From Caldimonas sp. (GTDB taxonomy: Bacteria; Pseudomonadota; Gammaproteobacteria; Burkholderiales; Burkholderiaceae_C): a stretch of 35,220 nucleotides of DNA. The translations under genes and the position numbers were made by a program. Position 1 is the first letter of the stretch, and each line of letters begins with the position of its first letter. Positions 419 through 8,493 of this stretch are shown in pieces. The notes beneath the pieces are model-generated. The model was not told the origin of the DNA. It was given only the letters and a program-made list of their open reading frames with translations, and ran no database searches. The DNA is taken from contig JBDTJD010000138.1 in assembly GCA_039935975.1 (NCBI GenBank), forward strand, positions 1 through 35,220. Reading direction: 5' to 3'.

Positions 419-979
419 ATGCCCAAGATCGCGGACATCGAAGAGACGCCGAACCCGAACGCGCGCAAGTTCGTCCTGCACGAGCCGCTCACGTGGGGCG
501 TGTCGCGCTCGTTCGAGAACGCCGCGCAAGCCGAAGGCGACGAACTGGCGCGCGCTCTCTTCGCGATCGAGCACGTGACGAATGTCTTCTATGTCGACCG
601 CTGGCTCACGGTCACCCAGGACGGCGGCGCCGACTGGCAGCAGCTCGCACGGCAGATCGCCGTTCCGCTGCGCGCCGCGCCGGCGGCCAGCGAACAGTCG
701 GCCGCCGCGGTGGTTGCCGCGCAGGCGTCGTTCGACCACCTGAGCGAGCGCGACCAGGATCGTCTCGACGAGATCAACCTCCTGCTCGACCAGCAGATCA
801 GGCCCTATCTGCAGAGCGACGGCGGTGACCTTCATGTTCTCGGGCTGGAGGGCGACCGCCTCGTCGTCCACTACCAGGGCGCGTGCGGGAGCTGCCCGAG
901 CTCGATCTCGGGGACGCTCCAGGGCATCCAGAATCTCCTTCGCACCATCGAGCCGGAGATCGAAGTCGTCGCTGCCTAG
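419..979 (+). CDS. NifU/Nfu-family Fe-S carrier (Nfu_N + NifU C-terminal domain)
   Basis: The N-terminus MPKIADIEETPNPNARKF is typical of Nfu_N. The C-terminal IRPYLQSDGGD...YQGACGSCPSS carries the CxxC motif. ATG at 419 follows the sufU stop. Confidence 0.9.
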   Translation: MPKIADIEETPNPNARKFVLHEPLTWGVSRSFENAAQAEGDELARALFAIEHVTNVFYVDRWLTVTQDGGADWQQLARQIAVPLRAAPAASEQSAAAVVAAQASFDHLSERDQDRLDEINLLLDQQIRPYLQSDGGDLHVLGLEGDRLVVHYQGACGSCPSSISGTLQGIQNLLRTIEPEIEVVAA

Positions 980-1422
980 GAGCGGCTTTCGACAGCGATG
1001 TCGATCTTCCTGAATTGCCGCCGCATGGACGGCTCGTGGAGCAGATCGGCCAGGGTCACTTCGTTGAGGCTGGCGATGAAGGCCGCACTGGCGCGGTCCA
1101 GCGCCCCCTTCAGGGAGCACCCCGGAGTGAGGACGCAGTCGAGAGCGACGCAATCGACGATGCTGAGATCCTCTTCCATCGCGAGAATGACATCGCCGAT
1201 CCGGATCGCGCCCGCCGCACGGCCGAGCATCAGACCGCCGCCGCGGCCGCGGAAGGTATCAAGATACCCCAGCCTGGACAGCTTGTGAACCACTTTGCGA
1301 AGGTGCTCGAGAGAGATCCGGTGCACGGCAGCGATCTCGCCCATGGTGCAGACGCGATCGCCGTGCCTGCCCACGAACAGCAGAACGCGCAAGGAGTAGT
1401 CGGTGAATCGGGTCAGTTGCAT
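976..1422 (-). CDS. nsrR: Rrf2-family NO-sensing transcriptional repressor NsrR
   Basis: MQLTRFTDYSLRVLL...HLRKVVHKLSRLGYLDTFRGRGGGLML and three C-terminal Cys (VDCVALDCVLTPGCSLKGAL). The TxFTDYSLR start is NsrR-like rather than IscR-like. Confidence 0.85.
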   Translation of the reverse strand: MQLTRFTDYSLRVLLFVGRHGDRVCTMGEIAAVHRISLEHLRKVVHKLSRLGYLDTFRGRGGGLMLGRAAGAIRIGDVILAMEEDLSIVDCVALDCVLTPGCSLKGALDRASAAFIASLNEVTLADLLHEPSMRRQFRKIDIAVESRS

Positions 1423-1485
1423 GGGTGATGCCGCGCGAGAGCCATCGGCTGCGCTTCGAGTCTAGCTGCCGCGACACGCAACACC

Positions 1486-2079
1486 CTAGACCGCGGGCGA
1501 CTCGCGAAGGGAATCGAAGCGTCCCCAGAGAAGCTTGCCGGCGATGGCGAGAAACAGTGCTGCGCCGATCAGCAGCATGAGCTGTCCGAGCAACTGTTGA
1601 TCGTCGAGCAGGTAGTTGTTGCACAAGCGCTCGGGCCAGATCAGATAGAGCCAGCCAAGGCGAAAGAACGTGGCGATGAATTCGACCAGGAAGAGGCCTC
1701 TGACGATGAAATTCATGTGTGCCCAGCCCAGCGAGATCGGCATTCCGATCAGCAGCGGCACGGTCAGATACTTGAACCCATTCAGAAGCGGATCGGTCAC
1801 CGATGCATCGAGCGTTCGCGGCAGCATCCAGTAGGCGCTGGCAACGCTCGCGAGCACCAGCCCCGTGACGCCGTGATGGTTCCAGTCGGCGACCAGCGCC
1901 CGGGCGCGCGTCGGAACCGCCTTCGCCAGCAGCCAGCCGACGCCGACGAGCAACGGCATCTGCAGCAGCATCTGCGCGGTCATGCTCGCTTCGAGAGTGT
2001 GCTTGACGGGCGGTGCGATCAGCACGAGCAGCGCCAGTAGCGCGATGCCGGCGTGACGCCGCCGCGTCGGGCTGCTCAT
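1486..2079 (-). CDS. CtaG/caa3-assembly-like integral membrane protein (equivalent to 'orf1' of norSY-senC clusters)
   Basis: ATG at 2079 overlaps the SCO stop (TGATG). About 5-6 hydrophobic segments. LEASMTAQMLLQMPLL, YWMLPRTLD and LCNNYLLDDQQLLG resemble Caa3_CtaG-type motifs. Confidence 0.6.
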   Translation of the reverse strand: MSSPTRRRHAGIALLALLVLIAPPVKHTLEASMTAQMLLQMPLLVGVGWLLAKAVPTRARALVADWNHHGVTGLVLASVASAYWMLPRTLDASVTDPLLNGFKYLTVPLLIGMPISLGWAHMNFIVRGLFLVEFIATFFRLGWLYLIWPERLCNNYLLDDQQLLGQLMLLIGAALFLAIAGKLLWGRFDSLRESPAV

Positions 2080-2720
2080 CACTCGAGCCGGCGCAGAACC
2101 GCTTGCCCGACGAGCGCCGGGTCGCCCAGGTCGAATATCTCTACCAGTCGTCCGCCCGGATCGACGAGATGGATGGCGGCGTTGTGCGTGTAGCCCCCCG
2201 ACTTGTCGGCCACGACGGTGATGCCGAAGGCGCGCTCGAGGCGTTCGAGGCCACCGCTTCCCGCGACCGGTCGGCCTGCGAGCCAGCCGGGTCGGCCGGC
2301 CTGGCCCTGCTCGTGATCGCGGCTGCCCGAGCGTTGCAGGTATGCCGCCAGCCGCTCCGGCGTGTCGTGGTCCGGATCGAAACTGATGCTGAGAAGCTGC
2401 ACCTTGCCTTGCGCGATCGGAGCGGCGAGGCGGTCCTGCAATTGCGCGAACTCGCCTCCCAGCGCCAGGCAGTAGGTCGGGCATCGGGTGTAGATGAAAT
2501 CGACCAGTAGCCAGCTCCCGCGCAATGCGGCGAAATTGATGTGTGCGCCGGACTGGGTCTCCAGCGCGACCTGCGGAACCTCGATCGGCTGGCGGAGCAC
2601 TTCGAGGCGGCGCGCCGCTTCGGTCGTGAAGGCCTGGAACCGGTCGGTGGCCGCGCCGAGCACGGCGATGCCGGCCACAAGCAACGCCAGGCTAGCCAGC
2701 AGCGCGCGCAGGATCGACAT
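2079..2720 (-). CDS. senC: SCO1/SenC copper chaperone
   Basis: N-terminal membrane anchor, DFIYTRCPTYC (CxxxC), SISFDPDHDT and the distal His in GYTHNAAIHLVDP. Confidence 0.9.
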   Translation of the reverse strand: MSILRALLASLALLVAGIAVLGAATDRFQAFTTEAARRLEVLRQPIEVPQVALETQSGAHINFAALRGSWLLVDFIYTRCPTYCLALGGEFAQLQDRLAAPIAQGKVQLLSISFDPDHDTPERLAAYLQRSGSRDHEQGQAGRPGWLAGRPVAGSGGLERLERAFGITVVADKSGGYTHNAAIHLVDPGGRLVEIFDLGDPALVGQAVLRRLE

Positions 2721-4182
2721 TGACGGGCGACCGCAACAGTCCGACAACGATGTGAATGCTGAACATGAGCATCGCCGCGATCACCAAGGCCGCACCCACG
2801 GCTCCGACCCGGTCATAAGCGAGCCATTGGGGCAGGTGCACCGCGAAGCGTCGCGGCGTGCTGATATGGCCGGCGGCAAGGAACGCGAAGACGAAGATCA
2901 GGCCACCGAAGACGTACAGCGGGAAACTCAGCTTGTCGCTGGTGCGCTCGGGCGTGCGCTGGCCGATCACGTGGAACATCAGCGCCAGCACCATCGGCAG
3001 CACGCCGAGCAGGAGATAGAAGTGAAAGTGCCCCGGCACCCATTGCGTGTTGTGCATCAGTCGGTTGACCCCGATGGTGCCGTCGATGATGGCGGGCACG
3101 ATTCCGGCGGCCCAGCCGAACATCGACAGCATCAGGAGCTTGGCCGGCATGCTCCAGCGCATGCCGGAGTGATACACATTGGTCAGGGCGCCGTACGCTG
3201 TCACGGTGAACACCGGCAGGCCGGCGCAATAGGAAATGATCTGGCCCATCACGAGCATCCAGAACGGCATCGCATAGTCCATGAGCAGGTGGTGCGGATA
3301 GACGATCAGCACCATCACCATGCTCGACGCCCATGACCACAGGAACGCACGGGATATCGGATAGGGCCGTCCGCTGTAGCGAGGCAGCAGCTCGTAGACG
3401 GCGATCACGCCCATGTAGATGCTGGCATTGATGAACATGTGGCCGAACAGGAAGATCAGGTTCTTGACGACGAGCGCGTTCAAGCCGATCGACGGGAAAT
3501 AGATGTTGATCAGGCACATCACCAGCACGACGGCGCCGGCGAGGATGCCCAGGGAGTTCGTGATCGCCACCATCGTGCTCGCGACCACGGTCTTCGGGTG
3601 CGATTTGTCGATCTCTCCGCCGAAAAGCCACTGCAGGCCGAGCGCACGACCGAGGTTGCCGTAGACCCGGATGATGGCGCGCATCGCATCCAGATAGAAC
3701 AGCAGGAAACCGACGCCGATCAGCAGATAGCCGAGCATGAAGAGCGCCGCCGCATTGACGCTCCACACATTCATCGAATGCACTGGCAGCGGATAGAGGA
3801 ACGTCCAGGCGCCGGCGTATCTGCCGAGGAAGACGGCCGCGAGAATGGCGACCGCGCCGAGCATGAAAAGGACATAGTTCGCGGTGAACAGCGCGAGGCT
3901 GAGGCTCACGTACTTGCGCAGGAAGAACCACATCACCGCGCTCGACGCGAGGCCGATGGTGCCGACCATCGCGGCGCCGTGCGCTGTCATCACCTGATAG
4001 AAAAGGTCGGTCGGAATGTCGAGCCAGGTGCTCTGGGCCAGACGCATCGTCACGCCGAGCAACATCATCAGCACGATTACCGTCAGCGCCGAGATGACAT
4101 AGAGGTTCAGGACCGCGCGCTCGGGGCGGCTCAGGGCTTCGTTGGCCGGATGCAGCACATCCTCGGATTGATGCGCGCTCAT
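2692..4182 (-). CDS. norY: Heme-copper oxidoreductase subunit I, probable sNOR-type nitric oxide reductase catalytic subunit (NorY)
   Basis: About 12 TM helices and six conserved His: MTAHG (helix II), FGHMFIN (helix VI), YPHHLLMD (helix VII), WVPGHFH (helix X). PRR is present near the C-terminus. The helix VI His+4 residue is Asn, not Tyr. Family assignment is confident; the norY name is inferred. Confidence 0.8.
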   Translation of the reverse strand: MSAHQSEDVLHPANEALSRPERAVLNLYVISALTVIVLMMLLGVTMRLAQSTWLDIPTDLFYQVMTAHGAAMVGTIGLASSAVMWFFLRKYVSLSLALFTANYVLFMLGAVAILAAVFLGRYAGAWTFLYPLPVHSMNVWSVNAAALFMLGYLLIGVGFLLFYLDAMRAIIRVYGNLGRALGLQWLFGGEIDKSHPKTVVASTMVAITNSLGILAGAVVLVMCLINIYFPSIGLNALVVKNLIFLFGHMFINASIYMGVIAVYELLPRYSGRPYPISRAFLWSWASSMVMVLIVYPHHLLMDYAMPFWMLVMGQIISYCAGLPVFTVTAYGALTNVYHSGMRWSMPAKLLMLSMFGWAAGIVPAIIDGTIGVNRLMHNTQWVPGHFHFYLLLGVLPMVLALMFHVIGQRTPERTSDKLSFPLYVFGGLIFVFAFLAAGHISTPRRFAVHLPQWLAYDRVGAVGAALVIAAMLMFSIHIVVGLLRSPVNVDPARAAG

Positions 4183-4724
4183 GGTCGACCTCCCGTCCCA
4201 GCGGCAATGACCTCGAATTCGGCCACCATCGCGTGATGGGCGAGGCCGCAGTATTCAAGACACATCACCCGGTATGTGCCGGCCTGGTCGAACGTGTAGA
4301 TCAGCCGGTTCGTGAAACCGGGCATCGCCTGCGTCTGCGTCAGGATTCGGTCATTGGGGCCATAGACGGCGAAGCCGTGGTTGACATCGAGGCTGGTGAC
4401 GTTGAACTGGACGGGCGTGCCGGCCTTCACCTGGTTCTGGCTCAGTTCCCATGACCATTGGCGCCCGACCGCATTGACGATCTGCGCGGTTTGCGATTGC
4501 GCCCGCTGGTCGCTCAACGGGAACGGATTCAAGGTGGCGTAGGCGACGGTCACGCCGAGCAGGATCAACGCGCCGAACCACCATCGTCGAATGGCGTAAG
4601 CCTTGCGGGTGATCTGTTCCGAATCGGCCTGCTTGCCCGTGTGGGCGATGACGTAGATGAACGTCAGGGCGACCACCCCGATCCCTGCCAGCGTGAAAAT
4701 CCAGACCGCATCTTGCGTCAGCAT
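4179..4724 (-). CDS. norS: Heme-copper oxidoreductase subunit II with CuA centre (probable NorS)
   Basis: Two N-terminal TM helices, GRQWSW, DVNHGF, QAMPG and the CuA motif CLEYCGLAHHAM. GGAGG RBS before the ATG. ATGA overlap with subunit I. Confidence 0.85.
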   Translation of the reverse strand: MLTQDAVWIFTLAGIGVVALTFIYVIAHTGKQADSEQITRKAYAIRRWWFGALILLGVTVAYATLNPFPLSDQRAQSQTAQIVNAVGRQWSWELSQNQVKAGTPVQFNVTSLDVNHGFAVYGPNDRILTQTQAMPGFTNRLIYTFDQAGTYRVMCLEYCGLAHHAMVAEFEVIAAGTGGRP

Positions 4725-4741
4725 GGTGGTCCTCCGCGATT

Positions 4742-4764
4742 AACATGTATTTCGGGCACATGTA
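4742..4764. promoter_or_regulatory. Candidate NsrR operator
   Basis: AACATGTATTTCGGGCACATGTA aligns to the proteobacterial NsrR consensus AAGATGYATTTnAAATRCATCTT with correct ATG...CAT spacing (left half 10/11, right half 5/11). It lies 18-40 nt upstream of the norS ATG. Confidence 0.65.
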
Positions 4765-4792
4765 ATGTCGGCACCGGCTGGGAGACTGTCAA
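4764..4792 (-). promoter_or_regulatory. Sigma70-type promoter for the norS operon
   Basis: Perfect TTGACA (4792-4787), 17-nt spacer, then GACATT (4769-4764) on the minus strand. Confidence 0.6.
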
Positions 4793-5057: not shown

Positions 5058-5414
5058 TCAGGCGACGGTGTGGCCGTGCTTGCTCGCGAACTGGTTCATC
5101 GCGTCGAGCGCTAGGTTCGAGTGCGCGTAGGCCGCGCCGGCCCGCATTTCGGCGGCCACCCAGATCGCTTCCATCACTTCCTGTGGGGTCGCACCCTTTC
5201 GCAGTGCTCGCTCGGTATGGCCACGGATGCAATACGGGCATTGCGTGACGTGAGCGGCAGCGACGGCGATCAACTCCTTGATCTTTCCCGGCAGCGCGCC
5301 GTCGGCAAAGACGCTTTCACCGAATGCCTTGAAAGCCGCCGAGGTCGCAGGCGTCAGTTCCTGGCGCTGGCGGTGCAACTCCCTCGAGGCTTCGGGGTAC
5401 AGCGGGTCTTCCAT
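5058..5414 (-). CDS. Carboxymuconolactone decarboxylase / AhpD-like protein
   Basis: DGALPGKIKELIAVAAAHVTQCPYCIRGH...GATPQEVMEAIWVAAEMRAG. AGGAG RBS before ATG 5414. Confidence 0.88.
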   Translation of the reverse strand: MEDPLYPEASRELHRQRQELTPATSAAFKAFGESVFADGALPGKIKELIAVAAAHVTQCPYCIRGHTERALRKGATPQEVMEAIWVAAEMRAGAAYAHSNLALDAMNQFASKHGHTVA

Positions 5415-5442
5415 GATCGGCTCCTGGTTGAAAGGGATGCGG

Positions 5443-6984
5443 TCACGCCGTCTCGGCGAGCGCGCGCTCGAACTCGACCTCGCTGCGCAGACCTTCGAGG
5501 TCCCGATGCACGACTGCGACGGCGAGCTTCCTGCCGTCGCGCCAGTACGAGAGCGTGCAGTCTCGCGTCTCGAGGCTGCCATCGATCCGGACCGCGTCGA
5601 AGCGTTCGGCATGGCCGACATAGGCCAGGCTGAAGTCGTACTGCTCGGTCCAGAAGAACGGCACCATGTCGAACGCCTCGCGGCGCCCCAGCATGTTGCG
5701 CGCTGCGACCTGTCCCTGACGCTCCGCCACCACCCAGTGCTCGACGCGGATCGGCTCGCCGCCTAGCCGGTCGGGCCAGCGCGCAATGTCGCCGGCGGCG
5801 TAGATGCCCGGGACACTGGTCGCCAGGTACCTGTCGACGCTGACGCCGCGGTCGATGGCGAGGCCCGCCTGCTCCGCGAGAGCGAGCGCGGGGCGAACGC
5901 CGATGCCGACGACGACCAGGTCAGCGCGAAGGGTTTCGCCGTTCGCCAGCGTCACCGCGTGCTCGTCGATGCCGACCGCGGTCGTCCCGAGATGAAACGT
6001 GACGCCGTGGTCCTCGTGGAGCGTGCGCAGGAACGTCCCGACCTCGGTGCCGAGGACGCGCTCCATGAGAGCGGTTTCGCGGCCGACGACGTGCACCTCG
6101 AGGTTTCGGGCCCTCAGCGACGCCGCGACTTCCAGGCCGATGAAGCTGGCGCCGATCACCACCGCGCGGCGCGCCGTGGTGGCCGCCGCGACCAGGGCGC
6201 GAGCGTCGGTCCAGGTGCGCAGGCAGTGCACGTGGCGCAGTTCGCCACCGGGAATGTCGAGACGCACCGGATCGGCGCCCGTGGCGAGCAGGAGCGCATC
6301 GAAGTCGTGGTGGCTGCCGTCGTCGAGTCGTACGCAGCGGTTCACCGTGTCGACGAGGACGACGCGCGAGTTCAGCCTGAGATCGATTCGCTGTTGCTGG
6401 TAGAACTCGGCGGATCGAAGCGGAATCCAGTCGTCGGCTGCGCTGCCGGCGAGAAAGTTCTTGGAGAGATTCGGGCGATCGCATGGCAGCGAGTCGTCGG
6501 CGCTCAGCACCGTGACCGTGCCTTCGAAGTGCTCGCGCCGAAGCATCTCCGCCGCCGCGTTGCCCGCGGCCCCTCCGCCGACGATGACGATCGACTTGGG
6601 CGCCGAAAACGCTCCGCTCGCAATCCGTGGGGTTGGCCCGGGCTCGATCTTGGCGCCGACGTAGATGTGGTCGTTGCGTTGCTCGACGTGCCAGCATGCC
6701 ACCGGATCGAGGGCGGGCGCACGCAGCGCCTCGCCGGTGCGCAGGCTGAAGCAGGCGTGATGCCAGGGGCAGCGGACCGTGTCGCCGTCCACCAGGCCTT
6801 CGGCGAGCGGGCCGCCGTAGTGCGTGCAAAGGGCGCCGATCGCGAACAACTCGCCGCGACGCCGGACCACGATCACCTGCTCGCCCTGCGAGTGGCCGAG
6901 CAGCGGAGTGCCCTCGAGCGCGTCGGACGCGCGAACGCCCTTTTCGAAATCCGGACCGACGAGCTCGTTGTTCGCTTCACTCAT
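5443..6984 (-). CDS. Rieske [2Fe-2S] ferredoxin fused to FAD/NAD(P)H ferredoxin reductase (AIF-like)
   Basis: Rieske motifs CTHYGG...CPWHHACF, FAD-binding GGGAAG, NAD-binding GASFIGLE, AAGD, RVEHW and VPFFW. Confidence 0.92.
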   Translation of the reverse strand: MSEANNELVGPDFEKGVRASDALEGTPLLGHSQGEQVIVVRRRGELFAIGALCTHYGGPLAEGLVDGDTVRCPWHHACFSLRTGEALRAPALDPVACWHVEQRNDHIYVGAKIEPGPTPRIASGAFSAPKSIVIVGGGAAGNAAAEMLRREHFEGTVTVLSADDSLPCDRPNLSKNFLAGSAADDWIPLRSAEFYQQQRIDLRLNSRVVLVDTVNRCVRLDDGSHHDFDALLLATGADPVRLDIPGGELRHVHCLRTWTDARALVAAATTARRAVVIGASFIGLEVAASLRARNLEVHVVGRETALMERVLGTEVGTFLRTLHEDHGVTFHLGTTAVGIDEHAVTLANGETLRADLVVVGIGVRPALALAEQAGLAIDRGVSVDRYLATSVPGIYAAGDIARWPDRLGGEPIRVEHWVVAERQGQVAARNMLGRREAFDMVPFFWTEQYDFSLAYVGHAERFDAVRIDGSLETRDCTLSYWRDGRKLAVAVVHRDLEGLRSEVEFERALAETA

Positions 6985-7008
6985 GACAATCTCGGGAACG
7001 TGAAGACG

Positions 7009-7368
7009 CTACTTCACGTTCAACGTCCCCTTCATGTTTGGATGAAAGGTGCAGGTATAGGCGAATTCGCCGACTCGCAGCGGCTTGAATTTCCACGACC
7101 CTCCGGCAGCAATGCTTTTCGAGTCGAAGGTCCCGGCGGCCGTCACCGTGTGCGGAAAGGGATCTTCGTTGATCCACACGACGGTGTCGCCACGCTTCAC
7201 CGTCACCACCTGCGGCGCATAGCTCGTCGATTTGATGACGACGGTATGGGTCGCGGGTTTTGCGGTGGCCGACCCTTGGCCGCCCGCTTCGGCAGGGCCG
7301 ACCACGCCGACGGCCAGCAGGAGCAGCCACAGCGGGAATGAGCCGGCGGACCGCCGCGTGGTGTTCAT
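7009..7368 (-). CDS. Periplasmic type-1 blue-copper cupredoxin (amicyanin/plastocyanin-like)
   Basis: Signal peptide, VKRGDTVVWIN, PHTVT and YTCTFHPNM, giving the His/Cys/His/Met ligand set. Confidence 0.88.
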   Translation of the reverse strand: MNTTRRSAGSFPLWLLLLAVGVVGPAEAGGQGSATAKPATHTVVIKSTSYAPQVVTVKRGDTVVWINEDPFPHTVTAAGTFDSKSIAAGGSWKFKPLRVGEFAYTCTFHPNMKGTLNVK

Positions 7369-7378
7369 GGACGTGACG

Positions 7379-7900
7379 TCACTTCTTGGCAAGCGTGGCC
7401 TGGATCTGCTTGGCGTGCTCCAGATGGCCGACGAAGGCCGGACGGACGGACACCAGCAGCGCCTTCAGCTCTGCGTTGTGGGCGCTCGGAATGAGAGTCT
7501 TGTCGATCGCGTCGATGACCTGCGCGTGATAGGCGACCTCATGCTCGATGTAGGCCTTGTCGAAGGCCGCGCCCTTGAGCATGCGCAGGGCCTTGAGGTT
7601 GTCTTCGCCGCCCTTCTTGAGGCTCTGGCTCGTCGGGTTGTCCTCCGGCACGACCTTGAGCTTGGTGACCAGCGCCACCGCTTGCTGGTTGACGCCGGTG
7701 TGGTCGGTGATCATCTGGCGGGCGAAGGCTTTGACCGCGTCGGCGTGGGCGTCGGACACTGCAAGCTTGCCCGCGTCGATGTCGACCTGATTCGCGGTGA
7801 CGACGATCGACGCGATTTGCGCGTCGCTGGGCGCCTGTGCGCTGGCCGCCGTCGTAGCAGCGAGCAGCAGGGCTGCAAAGGTGATTCGGAACAGTTTCAT
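7379..7900 (-). CDS. DUF4142 periplasmic ferritin-like protein
   Basis: Signal peptide MKLFRITFAALLLA...ASAQA, then SDAQIA...VKAFARQMITDH...FDKAYIEHEVAYH...HLEHAK. GGAG RBS. Confidence 0.85.
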   Translation of the reverse strand: MKLFRITFAALLLAATTAASAQAPSDAQIASIVVTANQVDIDAGKLAVSDAHADAVKAFARQMITDHTGVNQQAVALVTKLKVVPEDNPTSQSLKKGGEDNLKALRMLKGAAFDKAYIEHEVAYHAQVIDAIDKTLIPSAHNAELKALLVSVRPAFVGHLEHAKQIQATLAKK

Positions 7901-7968
7901 GGTCGACTCCGGGTTAGTTCGTGGGGGTGTCGGGAGGCCGCCGGCGTGGTGCGCGCGGGGCCCGTCCA

Positions 7969-8493
7969 TCAGGCCCTAGTGGACCCGGTTGTCGAAGAGA
8001 CGTCTGTCCGCTGCGACACGGAGCCGACGGGAGCCGCCGCTGGCTGCGAAGCAGCTGCCAGGATCGCCAGAATCTCGTCGAGGGTGCGATAGAGGTGGCT
8101 GAGCAGATCGCTGCCGAGTTGCTGCTCCATCTGCCGATAGGTTTCCTCGACCTTCGGTGCAATTCGCGCCGCGATCGCCCGGCTCCTGGCCGTCAGGCTC
8201 ACCCGCACGCGGCGCTGGTCTTGAACCGCGCGCTTGCGCGCGACCAGTCCCAGTTCATCCATGCGAGCCAGCATGCCGGCGAGGCTCGGGCTGGAGATCC
8301 GGCAAATCTCGCCGATCTCGCGCGGCTCCAGGGTGCCGGCGTCGAGCAGCGCTCGAATGATCCGCCACTGCTGCTCGGTGACCCCATGCTCGTTCAATAT
8401 CGGCCGGAAGCGCGCCATCAGCCGCTCGCGCGCCTGCAGCAGCAGCAACGGAAGGTTGCGATGCGCAAATCCGGCTTGGTGCTCGATCTTCAT
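7969..8493 (-). CDS. hpaR: MarR-family regulator, HpaR-like
   Basis: HRNLPLLLLQARERLMARFRPILNEHGVTEQQWRIIRAL...ISSPSLAGMLARM...DQRR is characteristic of HpaR. Confidence 0.8.
   Translation of the reverse strand: MKIEHQAGFAHRNLPLLLLQARERLMARFRPILNEHGVTEQQWRIIRALLDAGTLEPREIGEICRISSPSLAGMLARMDELGLVARKRAVQDQRRVRVSLTARSRAIAARIAPKVEETYRQMEQQLGSDLLSHLYRTLDEILAILAAASQPAAAPVGSVSQRTDVSSTTGSTRA

What the first reader, a model, noticed from the sequence alone, without database searches (positions are those of the whole stretch)
976..4792. Self-regulated sNOR-type nitric oxide reductase module: norS-norY-senC-orf-nsrR
Seen: the first four genes overlap one another (ATGA, 29-nt and TGATG overlaps) and encode a CuA subunit II, a 12-TM heme-copper subunit I, SCO and a CtaG-like protein, with nsrR following on the same strand. 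Subunit I keeps all six His but reads GHMFIN in helix VI, with Asn where A/B-family O2 reductases have the cross-linked Tyr. Established: Tyr-to-Asn with a CuA subunit II marks the B-family-derived NORs (sNOR/bNOR), and norSY-senC-orf1 is the order reported in ammonia-oxidising bacteria. sNOR is poorly characterised biochemically. Inference: pipelines would label this cytochrome c oxidase, but it is probably an NO reductase in a likely heterotroph. The built-in NO sensor is independent contextual support for an NO role.
Basis: partly seen in the sequence, partly recalled or inferred. Interest (0 to 1): 0.85.

Follow-up and report, generated by a model that had tools for sequence, protein, structure and literature searches.

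The report
sNOR operon with own NO switch
This is an intact copy of the known but never purified sNOR enzyme cassette, predicted to turn nitric oxide into nitrous oxide, and it carries its own NsrR-type repressor gene plus a matching DNA palindrome on its predicted promoter, which likely means NO itself switches it on and offers a direct test of whether these enzymes act on NO or on oxygen.

Summary
Observation confirmed: norS-norY-senC-orf1 overlap exactly as described and an Rrf2 gene follows 63 bp later. Subunit I carries all five published sNOR marker residues at identical spacing (N252, Y256, Y263, E264, T328), fails the bNOR pattern, has no C-family Tyr, and groups (100/100) with Nitrococcus, Paralcaligenes, Ruegeria and ammonia-oxidiser sNORs. 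New here: a 23-bp NsrR-type palindrome (4742-4764) sits between the predicted -10 and the RBS of norS. It is the top-scoring such site in the genome and tracks the regulator gene: 20 of 20 dereplicated loci with the gene have it, 4 of 78 without; 10 of those 78 have an FNR-type box instead. Phylogenetically this is only 5-7 independent contrasts (p 0.03-0.13). Ruegeria pomeroyi DSS-3 has the same logic with a divergent regulator. So the enzyme is an ordinary sNOR; the NO-gated wiring is a variant not found in my paper searches, though this scan noted it before on other DNA (e1-1525013). NO reduction remains inferred for the whole family; an NO-induced O2 reductase is not excluded. The 65%-complete genome also holds nirK and a qNOR fragment, and no amoA or RuBisCO was found.

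The parts
4787..4792 (-). Predicted sigma-70 -35 hexamer (TTGACA) of the norS promoter
   Evidence: Sequence; TTGAC[A/C] lies at -85..-50 in 19 of 20 regulator-bearing and 49 of 78 other dereplicated loci. Promoter not shown experimentally; the simple scan did not call it because the -10 matches only 3 of 6.
4764..4769 (-). Predicted weak -10 hexamer, 17 bp from the -35
   Evidence: Sequence; inferred from spacing only.
4742..4764 (.). 23-bp imperfect palindrome of NsrR-operator type, directly after the predicted -10 and over the predicted transcription start
   Evidence: 4 mismatches to the published NsrR consensus (PMC1274295); best site in the 2.65-Mb genome with a matrix trained on 19 relatives only, 30.8 bits against 19.2 for the next; co-occurs with the regulator gene.
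4731..4735 (-). Ribosome-binding site (GGAGG) of norS
   Evidence: Sequence.
4179..4724 (-). norS: subunit II with CuA ligand motif, 181 aa
   Evidence: Pfam COX2 33.1 bits; CuA motifs.
2692..4182 (-). norY: sNOR subunit I, 496 aa, 12 helices, six His, N252/Y256/Y263/E264/T328
   Evidence: Pfam COX1; marker residues; trees; model.
2079..2720 (-). senC: SCO1/SenC copper chaperone, 213 aa
   Evidence: Pfam SCO1-SenC 59 bits; CxxxC at 80-84.
1486..2079 (-). orf1: membrane protein, 197 aa, Caa3_CtaG/DUF1404-like fold, likely assembly factor
   Evidence: No Pfam hit; Atlas structure match TM 0.83 to a Caa3_CtaG cluster; present in 77 of 80 GTDB loci.
976..1422 (-). NsrR-type Rrf2 repressor, 148 aa (D8, R12, C92/C97/C103)
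   Evidence: Best NCBIfam hit NsrR 119 bits, below the 182 cut-off; best PDB hit S. coelicolor NsrR E 6e-19 against IscR 2e-8; 41% identical to E. coli NsrR with the same Cys spacing and in the same clade.

Best explanation
This is an sNOR operon (norS-norY-senC-orf1) with its own NsrR-type repressor gene and an NsrR-type palindrome on the predicted promoter, and it likely works as an NO-triggered, NO-consuming loop. Shown by sequence: gene order and overlaps, CuA and haem/metal ligands, loss of the catalytic Tyr, sNOR marker residues, the palindrome and its co-occurrence with the regulator. Inferred steps: the Rrf2 dimer carries an Fe-S cluster on three Cys plus Asp8 and sits on the palindrome, blocking transcription; NO (from the cell's own NirK or from neighbours) damages the cluster and releases the DNA; the five genes are probably read as one message, so the repressor also limits itself; SenC and the CtaG-like protein likely load copper; electrons from periplasmic cytochrome c would pass CuA, low-spin haem and the binuclear site, which reduces 2 NO to N2O, a two-electron reaction that needs no Tyr; protons may come from the cytoplasm through Y256/Y263/E264/T328. 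As NO falls the repressor is rebuilt and the operon closes. The main role is likely NO removal that does not need an anaerobic signal, as a supplement to the qNOR of this genome.
For: Marker residues match the sNOR column of Dataset S1 of PMC11214002 at a constant +9 offset and are nearly invariant: N252, Y256, Y263 in 163 of 163 aligned NorY, E264 and T328 in 161. No Tyr at the C-family helix VII site (V291 in 161 of 163). Tree: clade of 12 with Nitrococcus (74%), an amoA-bearing genome (50%), Cytobacillus and Ruegeria proteins at 100/100, apart from A, B, C, eNOR, cNOR, qNOR references. P. ureilyticus (82% identical) has five HCO genes, matching the A2/C1/qNOR1/sNOR1 row of Dataset S6. Operator: 20 of 20 against 4 of 78, shuffle background 43 of 2000, never opposite in 5 and 7 independent pairs; perfect palindrome and divergent Rrf2 at the R. 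pomeroyi sNOR. NsrR sites precede norB in several betaproteobacteria (PMC1274295, passages). bNOR, with the same active site, and eNOR are shown NO reductases, and N. mobilis makes N2O with sNOR as only identified NOR (PMC11214002 parts 1-3; PMC5665590 passages).
Against: No purified sNOR appeared in my searches; Murali et al. list it as predicted. N. europaea sNOR is induced by O2 limitation and was proposed to be a high-affinity oxidase (PMC6967387, passages). 78 of 98 dereplicated loci lack the regulator and 10 of them carry an FNR-type box, which can mean O2 or NO sensing. The regulator is below the NsrR equivalog cut-off and no RirA reference was in my tree. The window's own site has 4 mismatches to the consensus, and the positional window was chosen after seeing the data. 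Independent contrasts are few (p 0.06-0.125; 0.03-0.06). One locus with a divergent Rrf2 has no clear box (L226) and L003 has a strong box without the gene. The sister group in my trees keeps the Tyr. The genome already has a qNOR. No expression data.
Confidence: 0.72

Rival explanations
1. NO-induced, NO-tolerant oxygen reductase: the regulator senses NO, but the enzyme is made to keep O2 respiration going when NO inhibits the A- and C-family oxidases, reducing O2 without the Tyr cofactor or with both gases as substrates.
For: Proposal for N. europaea sNOR from O2-limited induction (PMC6967387); Tyr-bearing B-type sister group; SCO and CtaG-like factors are typical of oxidase assembly; FNR-type boxes in 10 of 78 regulator-less loci; R. 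pomeroyi sNOR lies beside a cbb3 operon.
Against: Catalytic Tyr absent in all 163 aligned NorY and no Tyr at the C-family site; O2 reduction in this superfamily needs that cofactor and purified eNOR, also Tyr-less, did not reduce O2 (PMC11214002); the genome has two A-type and two C-type oxidase genes already.
Confidence: 0.13
2. The enzyme is an NO reductase but the Rrf2 protein senses something else (iron or Fe-S status like RirA, O2, or nitrite-derived species), so the regulator is no independent evidence for an NO role.
For: Score below the NsrR cut-off, RirA second at 95 bits; recognition helix differs from E. coli NsrR; the genome has a second NsrR-type gene next to nnrS that could be the main NO sensor; the gene abuts nfu/sufU at the window's start.
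Against: D8, R12 and C-x4-C-x5-C as in E. coli NsrR, grouping with it at SH-aLRT 94; the site resembles the NsrR consensus; nfu and sufU are not next to the cassette in any of 163 other loci.
Confidence: 0.1
3. The Rrf2 gene and the palindrome are passengers inherited together in one lineage, and the repressor does not control the operon.
For: Most regulator-bearing loci form neighbouring branches; only 5-7 independent contrasts.
Against: Box is lost or decayed where the gene is lost (L001, L009, L011, L017) and present where the gene reappears in a distant NorY (L076, 61%) or in divergent orientation (R. pomeroyi); it is the best site in the genome and sits at a repressing position.
Confidence: 0.05

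Closest known systems
sNOR (norSY-senC-orf1) of Nitrococcus mobilis Nb-231, ammonia-oxidising bacteria (N. europaea NE0683-86), Paralcaligenes ureilyticus, Ruegeria pomeroyi
   Same: Gene order (PMC4940428 table), marker residues, 74% (Nitrococcus), 82% (Paralcaligenes), 50% (amoA-bearing genome G153), 47% (Ruegeria) identity of subunit I, one clade.
   Different: An NsrR-type gene follows orf1 and an operator covers the promoter; the Nitrococcus, Paralcaligenes and G153 loci have neither. In N. europaea nsrR (NE0926) lies by nirK (NE0924), not by norSY (PMC4940428).
bNOR (CuA-NOR) of Bacillus azotoformans
   Same: Asn in place of the cross-linked Tyr, CuA subunit II, senC and a membrane protein alongside (PMC3475470, PMC11214002); shown to reduce NO.
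   Different: bNOR has Tyr at N+3, Ser at T-3, no Glu at N+12 and a longer, 13-helix subunit I; here I255, F325, E264 and 12 helices. No bNOR sequence was available for my tree.
B-family O2 reductases (Thermus thermophilus ba3; Tyr-bearing Gaiellales-type sister group)
   Same: Best solved matches to the family profile; CuA subunit II; Y248 equivalent kept as Y263.
   Different: They keep the His-linked Tyr; 20-25% identity only.
NsrR regulon modules (nsrR with hmp, nnrS, norB, nirK; S. coelicolor NsrR with three targets)
   Same: Rrf2 repressor with three Cys and Asp8, 23-bp palindrome, small local regulon (PMC1274295, PMC9338935 passages).
   Different: Target is an sNOR operon, which I did not see among the NsrR targets in the passages read; NO sensing and binding untested here.

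Membership tests
sNOR | HCO subunit I with six His and Asn in place of the cross-linked Tyr | tested here: met
   H68/248/297/298/385/387, N252.
sNOR | Channel residues Y(N+4), Y(N+11), E(N+12), T(N+76), no Ser (Dataset S1 of PMC11214002) | tested here: met
   Y256, Y263, E264, T328, F325.
sNOR | CuA-binding subunit II | tested here: met
   Motifs at 113-117 and 155-166; metal binding itself not testable.
sNOR | Phylogenetic grouping with published sNORs, derived from the B-family | tested here: met
   Clade 100/100 with Nitrococcus and Ruegeria proteins, which PMC5665590 and Dataset S6 class as sNOR; Tyr-bearing B-type sister group 100/99. bNOR, gNOR, nNOR references missing.
sNOR | Gene order norS-norY-senC-orf1 | tested here: met
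sNOR | NO reduction to N2O; identity of the active-site metal | not testable with these tools
   Needs enzyme assay; predicted only in PMC11214002.
bNOR | Tyr at N+3, Ser at T-3, no Glu at N+12 | tested here: not met
   I255, F325, E264.
A/B-family O2 reductase | Tyr four residues after the helix VI His | tested here: not met
   N252.
C-family O2 reductase | Tyr in helix VII six residues before the CuB His pair; cytochrome c subunits | tested here: not met
   V291; subunit II is CuA type.
eNOR / nNOR / cNOR / qNOR | Gln (eNOR) or Glu (nNOR, cNOR, qNOR) at the Tyr position | tested here: not met
   Asn here.
O2 reductases generally | No migrated Tyr within cross-link distance of H248 in three dimensions | tested here: inconclusive
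NsrR | Rrf2 fold with three Cys and Asp8 as cluster ligands | tested here: met
   D8, C92, C97, C103 align with S. coelicolor and E. coli NsrR.
NsrR | Score above the NCBIfam NsrR equivalog cut-off | tested here: not met
   119 against 182 bits; still the best of eight models. Filed as NsrR-type, not as a strict orthologue.
NsrR | Closer to NsrR than to IscR/SufR or RirA | tested here: inconclusive
   Groups with E. coli NsrR away from IscR-like rows; no RirA sequence was included.
NsrR | Palindromic operator resembling gATGyAT-N5-ATrCATc at target promoter | tested here: met
   4 mismatches in the window, 0-4 in all 20 regulator-bearing loci.
NsrR | Fe-S cluster and NO-dependent release from DNA | not testable with these tools
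   Needs protein work.

The most novel reading that the evidence does not exclude
NO-gated expression through a dedicated NsrR is the original wiring of this proteobacterial sNOR lineage (present on its deepest branches and, in divergent form, in Ruegeria), later swapped for FNR-type or no local control. These cassettes are portable, proton-channel-bearing NO scavengers that let aerobic heterotrophs, most without a detected nitrite reductase (9 of 11 genomes checked), respire other organisms' NO under oxic conditions with charge separation: an N2O source hidden under 'cytochrome c oxidase' annotations.
Probability: 0.3. Interest if true: 0.72.

Novelty: new variant of a known kind. Interest (0 to 1): 0.5.

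Why it matters
Whether sNOR reduces NO or O2 is an open, published disagreement (PMC11214002 against PMC6967387), and the family occurs in ammonia oxidisers and hundreds of other genomes, so it bears on N2O budgets. A cis-site and regulator that travel with the operon give evidence independent of the active-site argument and name a simple experiment in cultured, non-pathogenic strains: R. pomeroyi DSS-3 (regulator SPO_RS20765, sNOR SPO_RS20760-20755). The enzyme itself is not new, and the scan has met the same wiring once before.

Tried and rejected
Reference alignment of PMC11214002 (Dataset S2) is a picture PDF and could not be read; SI Appendix and tree file were not readable, so bNOR, gNOR, nNOR rows are missing from my trees and their figures on Tyr migration were not seen. 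The first 79-row tree finished only as a quick search; I rely on the 32-row careful tree. Fold searches returned A-family structures first and ba3 lower; they confirm the HCO fold but do not sort families. The promoter scan did not call the norS promoter. No RNA holder listed for the locus. Old Ruegeria locus tags, recalled and unverified, found no paper; one R. pomeroyi transcriptome paper had no passage on these genes. Fisher p-values (1e-11 and below) were rejected as inflated by kinship. My interim idea that sNOR is this genome's only NOR was rejected: contig C442 begins with the end of a qNOR gene. A link to the neighbouring sufU/nfu genes was rejected. A second target of the regulator was not found: next-best matrix hits are 11 bits lower and those inspected look like coding sequence; no box before nirK or within 200 bp before nnrS. 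Pfam does not recognise orf1 even at E 5. Complex prediction and read mapping were not used.
Full report
Observation. The five genes lie on the minus strand exactly as described: norS 4724..4179, norY 4182..2692, senC 2720..2079, orf1 2079..1486 and an Rrf2 gene 1422..976, with ATGA, 29-nt and TGATG overlaps and a 63-bp gap before the regulator. Pfam gives COX2, COX1, SCO1-SenC and Rrf2. orf1 has no Pfam hit even at E 5, but its Atlas model matches a Caa3_CtaG cluster at TM 0.83. The AlphaFold model of subunit I (74-row alignment, pLDDT 91.3) has 12 long helices and the HCO fold (TM about 0.8, Z 35-42). The six His are at 68, 248, 297, 298, 385, 387, and N252 aligns with the cross-linked Tyr of A-family enzymes and of Thermus ba3.

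Family of the enzyme. Dataset S1 of Murali et al. 2024 (PMC11214002; I read main-text parts 1-3 of 6, Datasets S1 and S4 whole and rows of S6) lists N243, Y247, Y254, E255, T319 for the B. azotoformans sNOR. The window protein has N252, Y256, Y263, E264, T328, a constant offset of 9. The bNOR pattern (Tyr at N+3, Ser three before the Thr, no Glu) is not met. Among 163 NorY sequences aligned (of 164 loci; one too short), N252, Y256 and Y263 are invariant, E264 and T328 are kept in 161, the C-family Tyr position is Val in 161, and Y295 is Phe in 116. In a 32-row IQ-TREE tree the protein lies in a 12-member clade (100/100) with Nitrococcus mobilis (74%), a NorY from an amoA-bearing genome (G153, 50%), a Cytobacillus-cluster protein (45%) and R. 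pomeroyi (47%); other Asn-bearing proteins join next (100/100), then a Tyr-bearing B-type group (100/99), apart from A, other B, a Gln-bearing eNOR-type, C, cNOR and qNOR rows (family labels of unnamed rows come from their motifs). bNOR, gNOR and nNOR were not available. Three anchors are classed as sNOR in print: N. mobilis has only two HCO genes, the non-A one being the sNOR of PMC5665590 (passages); P. ureilyticus, whose protein is 82% identical, has five HCO genes, matching its Dataset S6 row A2, C1, qNOR1, sNOR1; R. pomeroyi is listed with one sNOR. The order norSY-senC-orf1 is tabulated for three AOB in PMC4940428 (passages) and recurs in 77 of the 80 best GTDB loci kept out of 369. All source names shown call these proteins cytochrome c oxidase subunit I.

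The regulator. Best NCBIfam model is NsrR at 119 bits, below its 182 cut-off, RirA second at 95. Best solved match is S. coelicolor NsrR (E 6e-19; IscR 2e-8), with D8 and three Cys aligned; Asp8 as cluster ligand is from PMC9338935 (passages) and the PMC5411485 abstract (listing). It is 41% identical to E. coli NsrR with the same Cys spacing and groups with it (SH-aLRT 94) away from IscR-like proteins; no RirA was included. The genome has a second NsrR-type gene beside nnrS, so this one looks like a dedicated paralogue.

Upstream of norS lie TTGACA (4792..4787), a weak -10 17 bp on, then a 23-bp imperfect palindrome (4742-4764) and the RBS. It has 4 mismatches to the NsrR consensus gATGyAT-N5-ATrCATc of PMC1274295 (passages). 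Of 161 loci (window, 80 GTDB, 80 of 392 metagenome matches), 14 lacked 100 bp of upstream DNA and 26 lacked enough downstream DNA; 121 remained, 98 after dereplication at 95% NorY identity. With at most 4 mismatches starting at -50..-28 (a window chosen after viewing the data), 20 of 20 loci with the regulator gene have the box against 4 of 78 without; anywhere in 100 bp the counts are 20 of 20 against 7 of 78, and at 3 mismatches 15 of 20 against 2 of 78. Shuffled upstream regions give 43 of 2000. A matrix from 19 relatives, window excluded, ranks the window's site first in the genome (30.8 bits, next 19.2). An FNR/DNR-type box (at most 1 mismatch) occurs in 10 of the 78 regulator-less loci and 0 of 20 others. 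Kinship inflates these counts: the NorY tree needs 5 changes of the regulator state, and 5 independent pairs go 4-5 the same way, none opposite (p 0.06-0.125). Adding R. pomeroyi and 8 more distant loci (L221 dropped for lack of upstream DNA, L217 a duplicate, L172 left out as norY is not annotated intact) gives 7 pairs, p 0.03-0.06. R. pomeroyi DSS-3 has a divergent NsrR-type gene, a perfect palindrome at the same place (28.9 bits) and a formate/nitrite channel gene after orf1. Two more loci have a divergent Rrf2 but only weak sites (L172, L226). L003 has a strong box and no adjacent gene; L002 and L009 have decayed ones.

Host and distribution. The genome (65% complete) holds two A-type and two C-type oxidase genes, this sNOR, the end of a qNOR at a contig edge and nirK. 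nirS, narG, nosZ, amoA and RuBisCO were not found (the amoA search rang in G153), which fits a heterotroph but does not show it. norY was found in 0 of 40 relatives including 24 of the genus and 10 of 400 genomes of the order; the flanking genes are not shared with 163 other loci except ahpD in 5. The cassette is patchy and probably mobile (inference). Of 11 named genomes with the regulator-linked cassette, one has nirK and one nirS by the models used (completeness not given), which favours NO scavenging over a full denitrification role.

Mechanism and rivals. Most likely (0.72) a negative-feedback loop: repressor on the operator, NO destroys its cluster, the operon is read, NorSY reduces NO to N2O with electrons through CuA, repression returns. 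Anatomy and co-occurrence are shown; cluster, binding, NO sensing, co-transcription and catalysis are inferred. The chemistry argument (O2 reduction needs the Tyr, NO reduction does not; bNOR and eNOR are proven NORs) is from PMC11214002. The main rival is an NO-induced, NO-tolerant O2 reductase (0.13), after PMC6967387 (passages), which NO regulation alone cannot exclude. A non-NO signal for the regulator (0.10) and mere co-inheritance (0.05) follow.

Novelty. The enzyme cassette is a regular sNOR, and sNORs outside AOB are known (PMC11214002; 10.1101/2024.05.17.594689 and PMC3475470, passages, neither mentioning NsrR). Searches for norSY with nsrR (5 papers, two checked by passage), sNOR/NsrR/Rrf2 (25 of 91 listed), R. 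pomeroyi with NsrR or Rrf2 and sNOR papers since 2024 showed no report of NsrR control of sNOR and no purified sNOR; the library lacks most subscription papers and curated regulon databases were not searched. This scan noted an NsrR-controlled sNOR in another genome (e1-1525013) and two plain copies; I had found the operator before that look-up. Verdict: new variant of a known kind, interest 0.5, chiefly because it turns an open question into a simple experiment in a cultured strain.

Noticed in passing
L178:482-3178 (Thermus thermophilus SNM6-6 plasmid): HCO annotated as cbb3 subunit I has Gln at the Tyr position and Lys in place of the second low-spin haem His, i.e. eNOR-type, and is directly followed by an Rrf2 gene with three Cys.
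   Followed up: partly
L070, L071, L073, L076, L078-L080, L152: In this sNOR subclade subunit II extends about 160 residues further; the C-termini printed for L070, L080 and L152 look like a fused cytochrome c domain, as in caa3 oxidases.
   Followed up: no
L012, L075, L106, L107 norS: CuA motif reads C-x-A-x-C instead of C-x-E-x-C; seven others have Asp for Gly after the first CuA His.
   Followed up: no
P0130-P0196, L169: A wider Asn-bearing group (Thermomicrobium, Bacteroidota, Chloroflexota) often lacks the Glu at N+12 that marks sNOR, and some are 590-680 aa long; P0153 and P0174 have Ser at the Asn position and lack several His.
   Followed up: partly
L168, L172, L220, L223, L225, L169: Formate/nitrite channel gene next to distant sNOR cassettes, absent from the 160 closer loci.
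   Followed up: partly
window 976-979: The stop codons of the regulator and of the convergent nfu gene overlap in CTAG, with no terminator-like site called.
   Followed up: no
window 5058-8493, - strand: Upstream run on the same strand: AhpD/CMD protein, Rieske-ferredoxin reductase fusion, small cupredoxin, DUF4142 protein, HpaR-type MarR; the cupredoxin could be an electron donor but is not linked to sNOR in other loci.
   Followed up: partly
G000:C125 (L199:784-3141): nirK with a C-terminal cytochrome c motif, followed by a protein resembling the formylglycine-generating-enzyme family (label from recall).
   Followed up: no
G000:C175 (L083): Divergent C-family-like subunit I with a long branch, followed by a multi-haem CcoO fusion and preceded by a molybdate-binding-like protein.
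   Followed up: no
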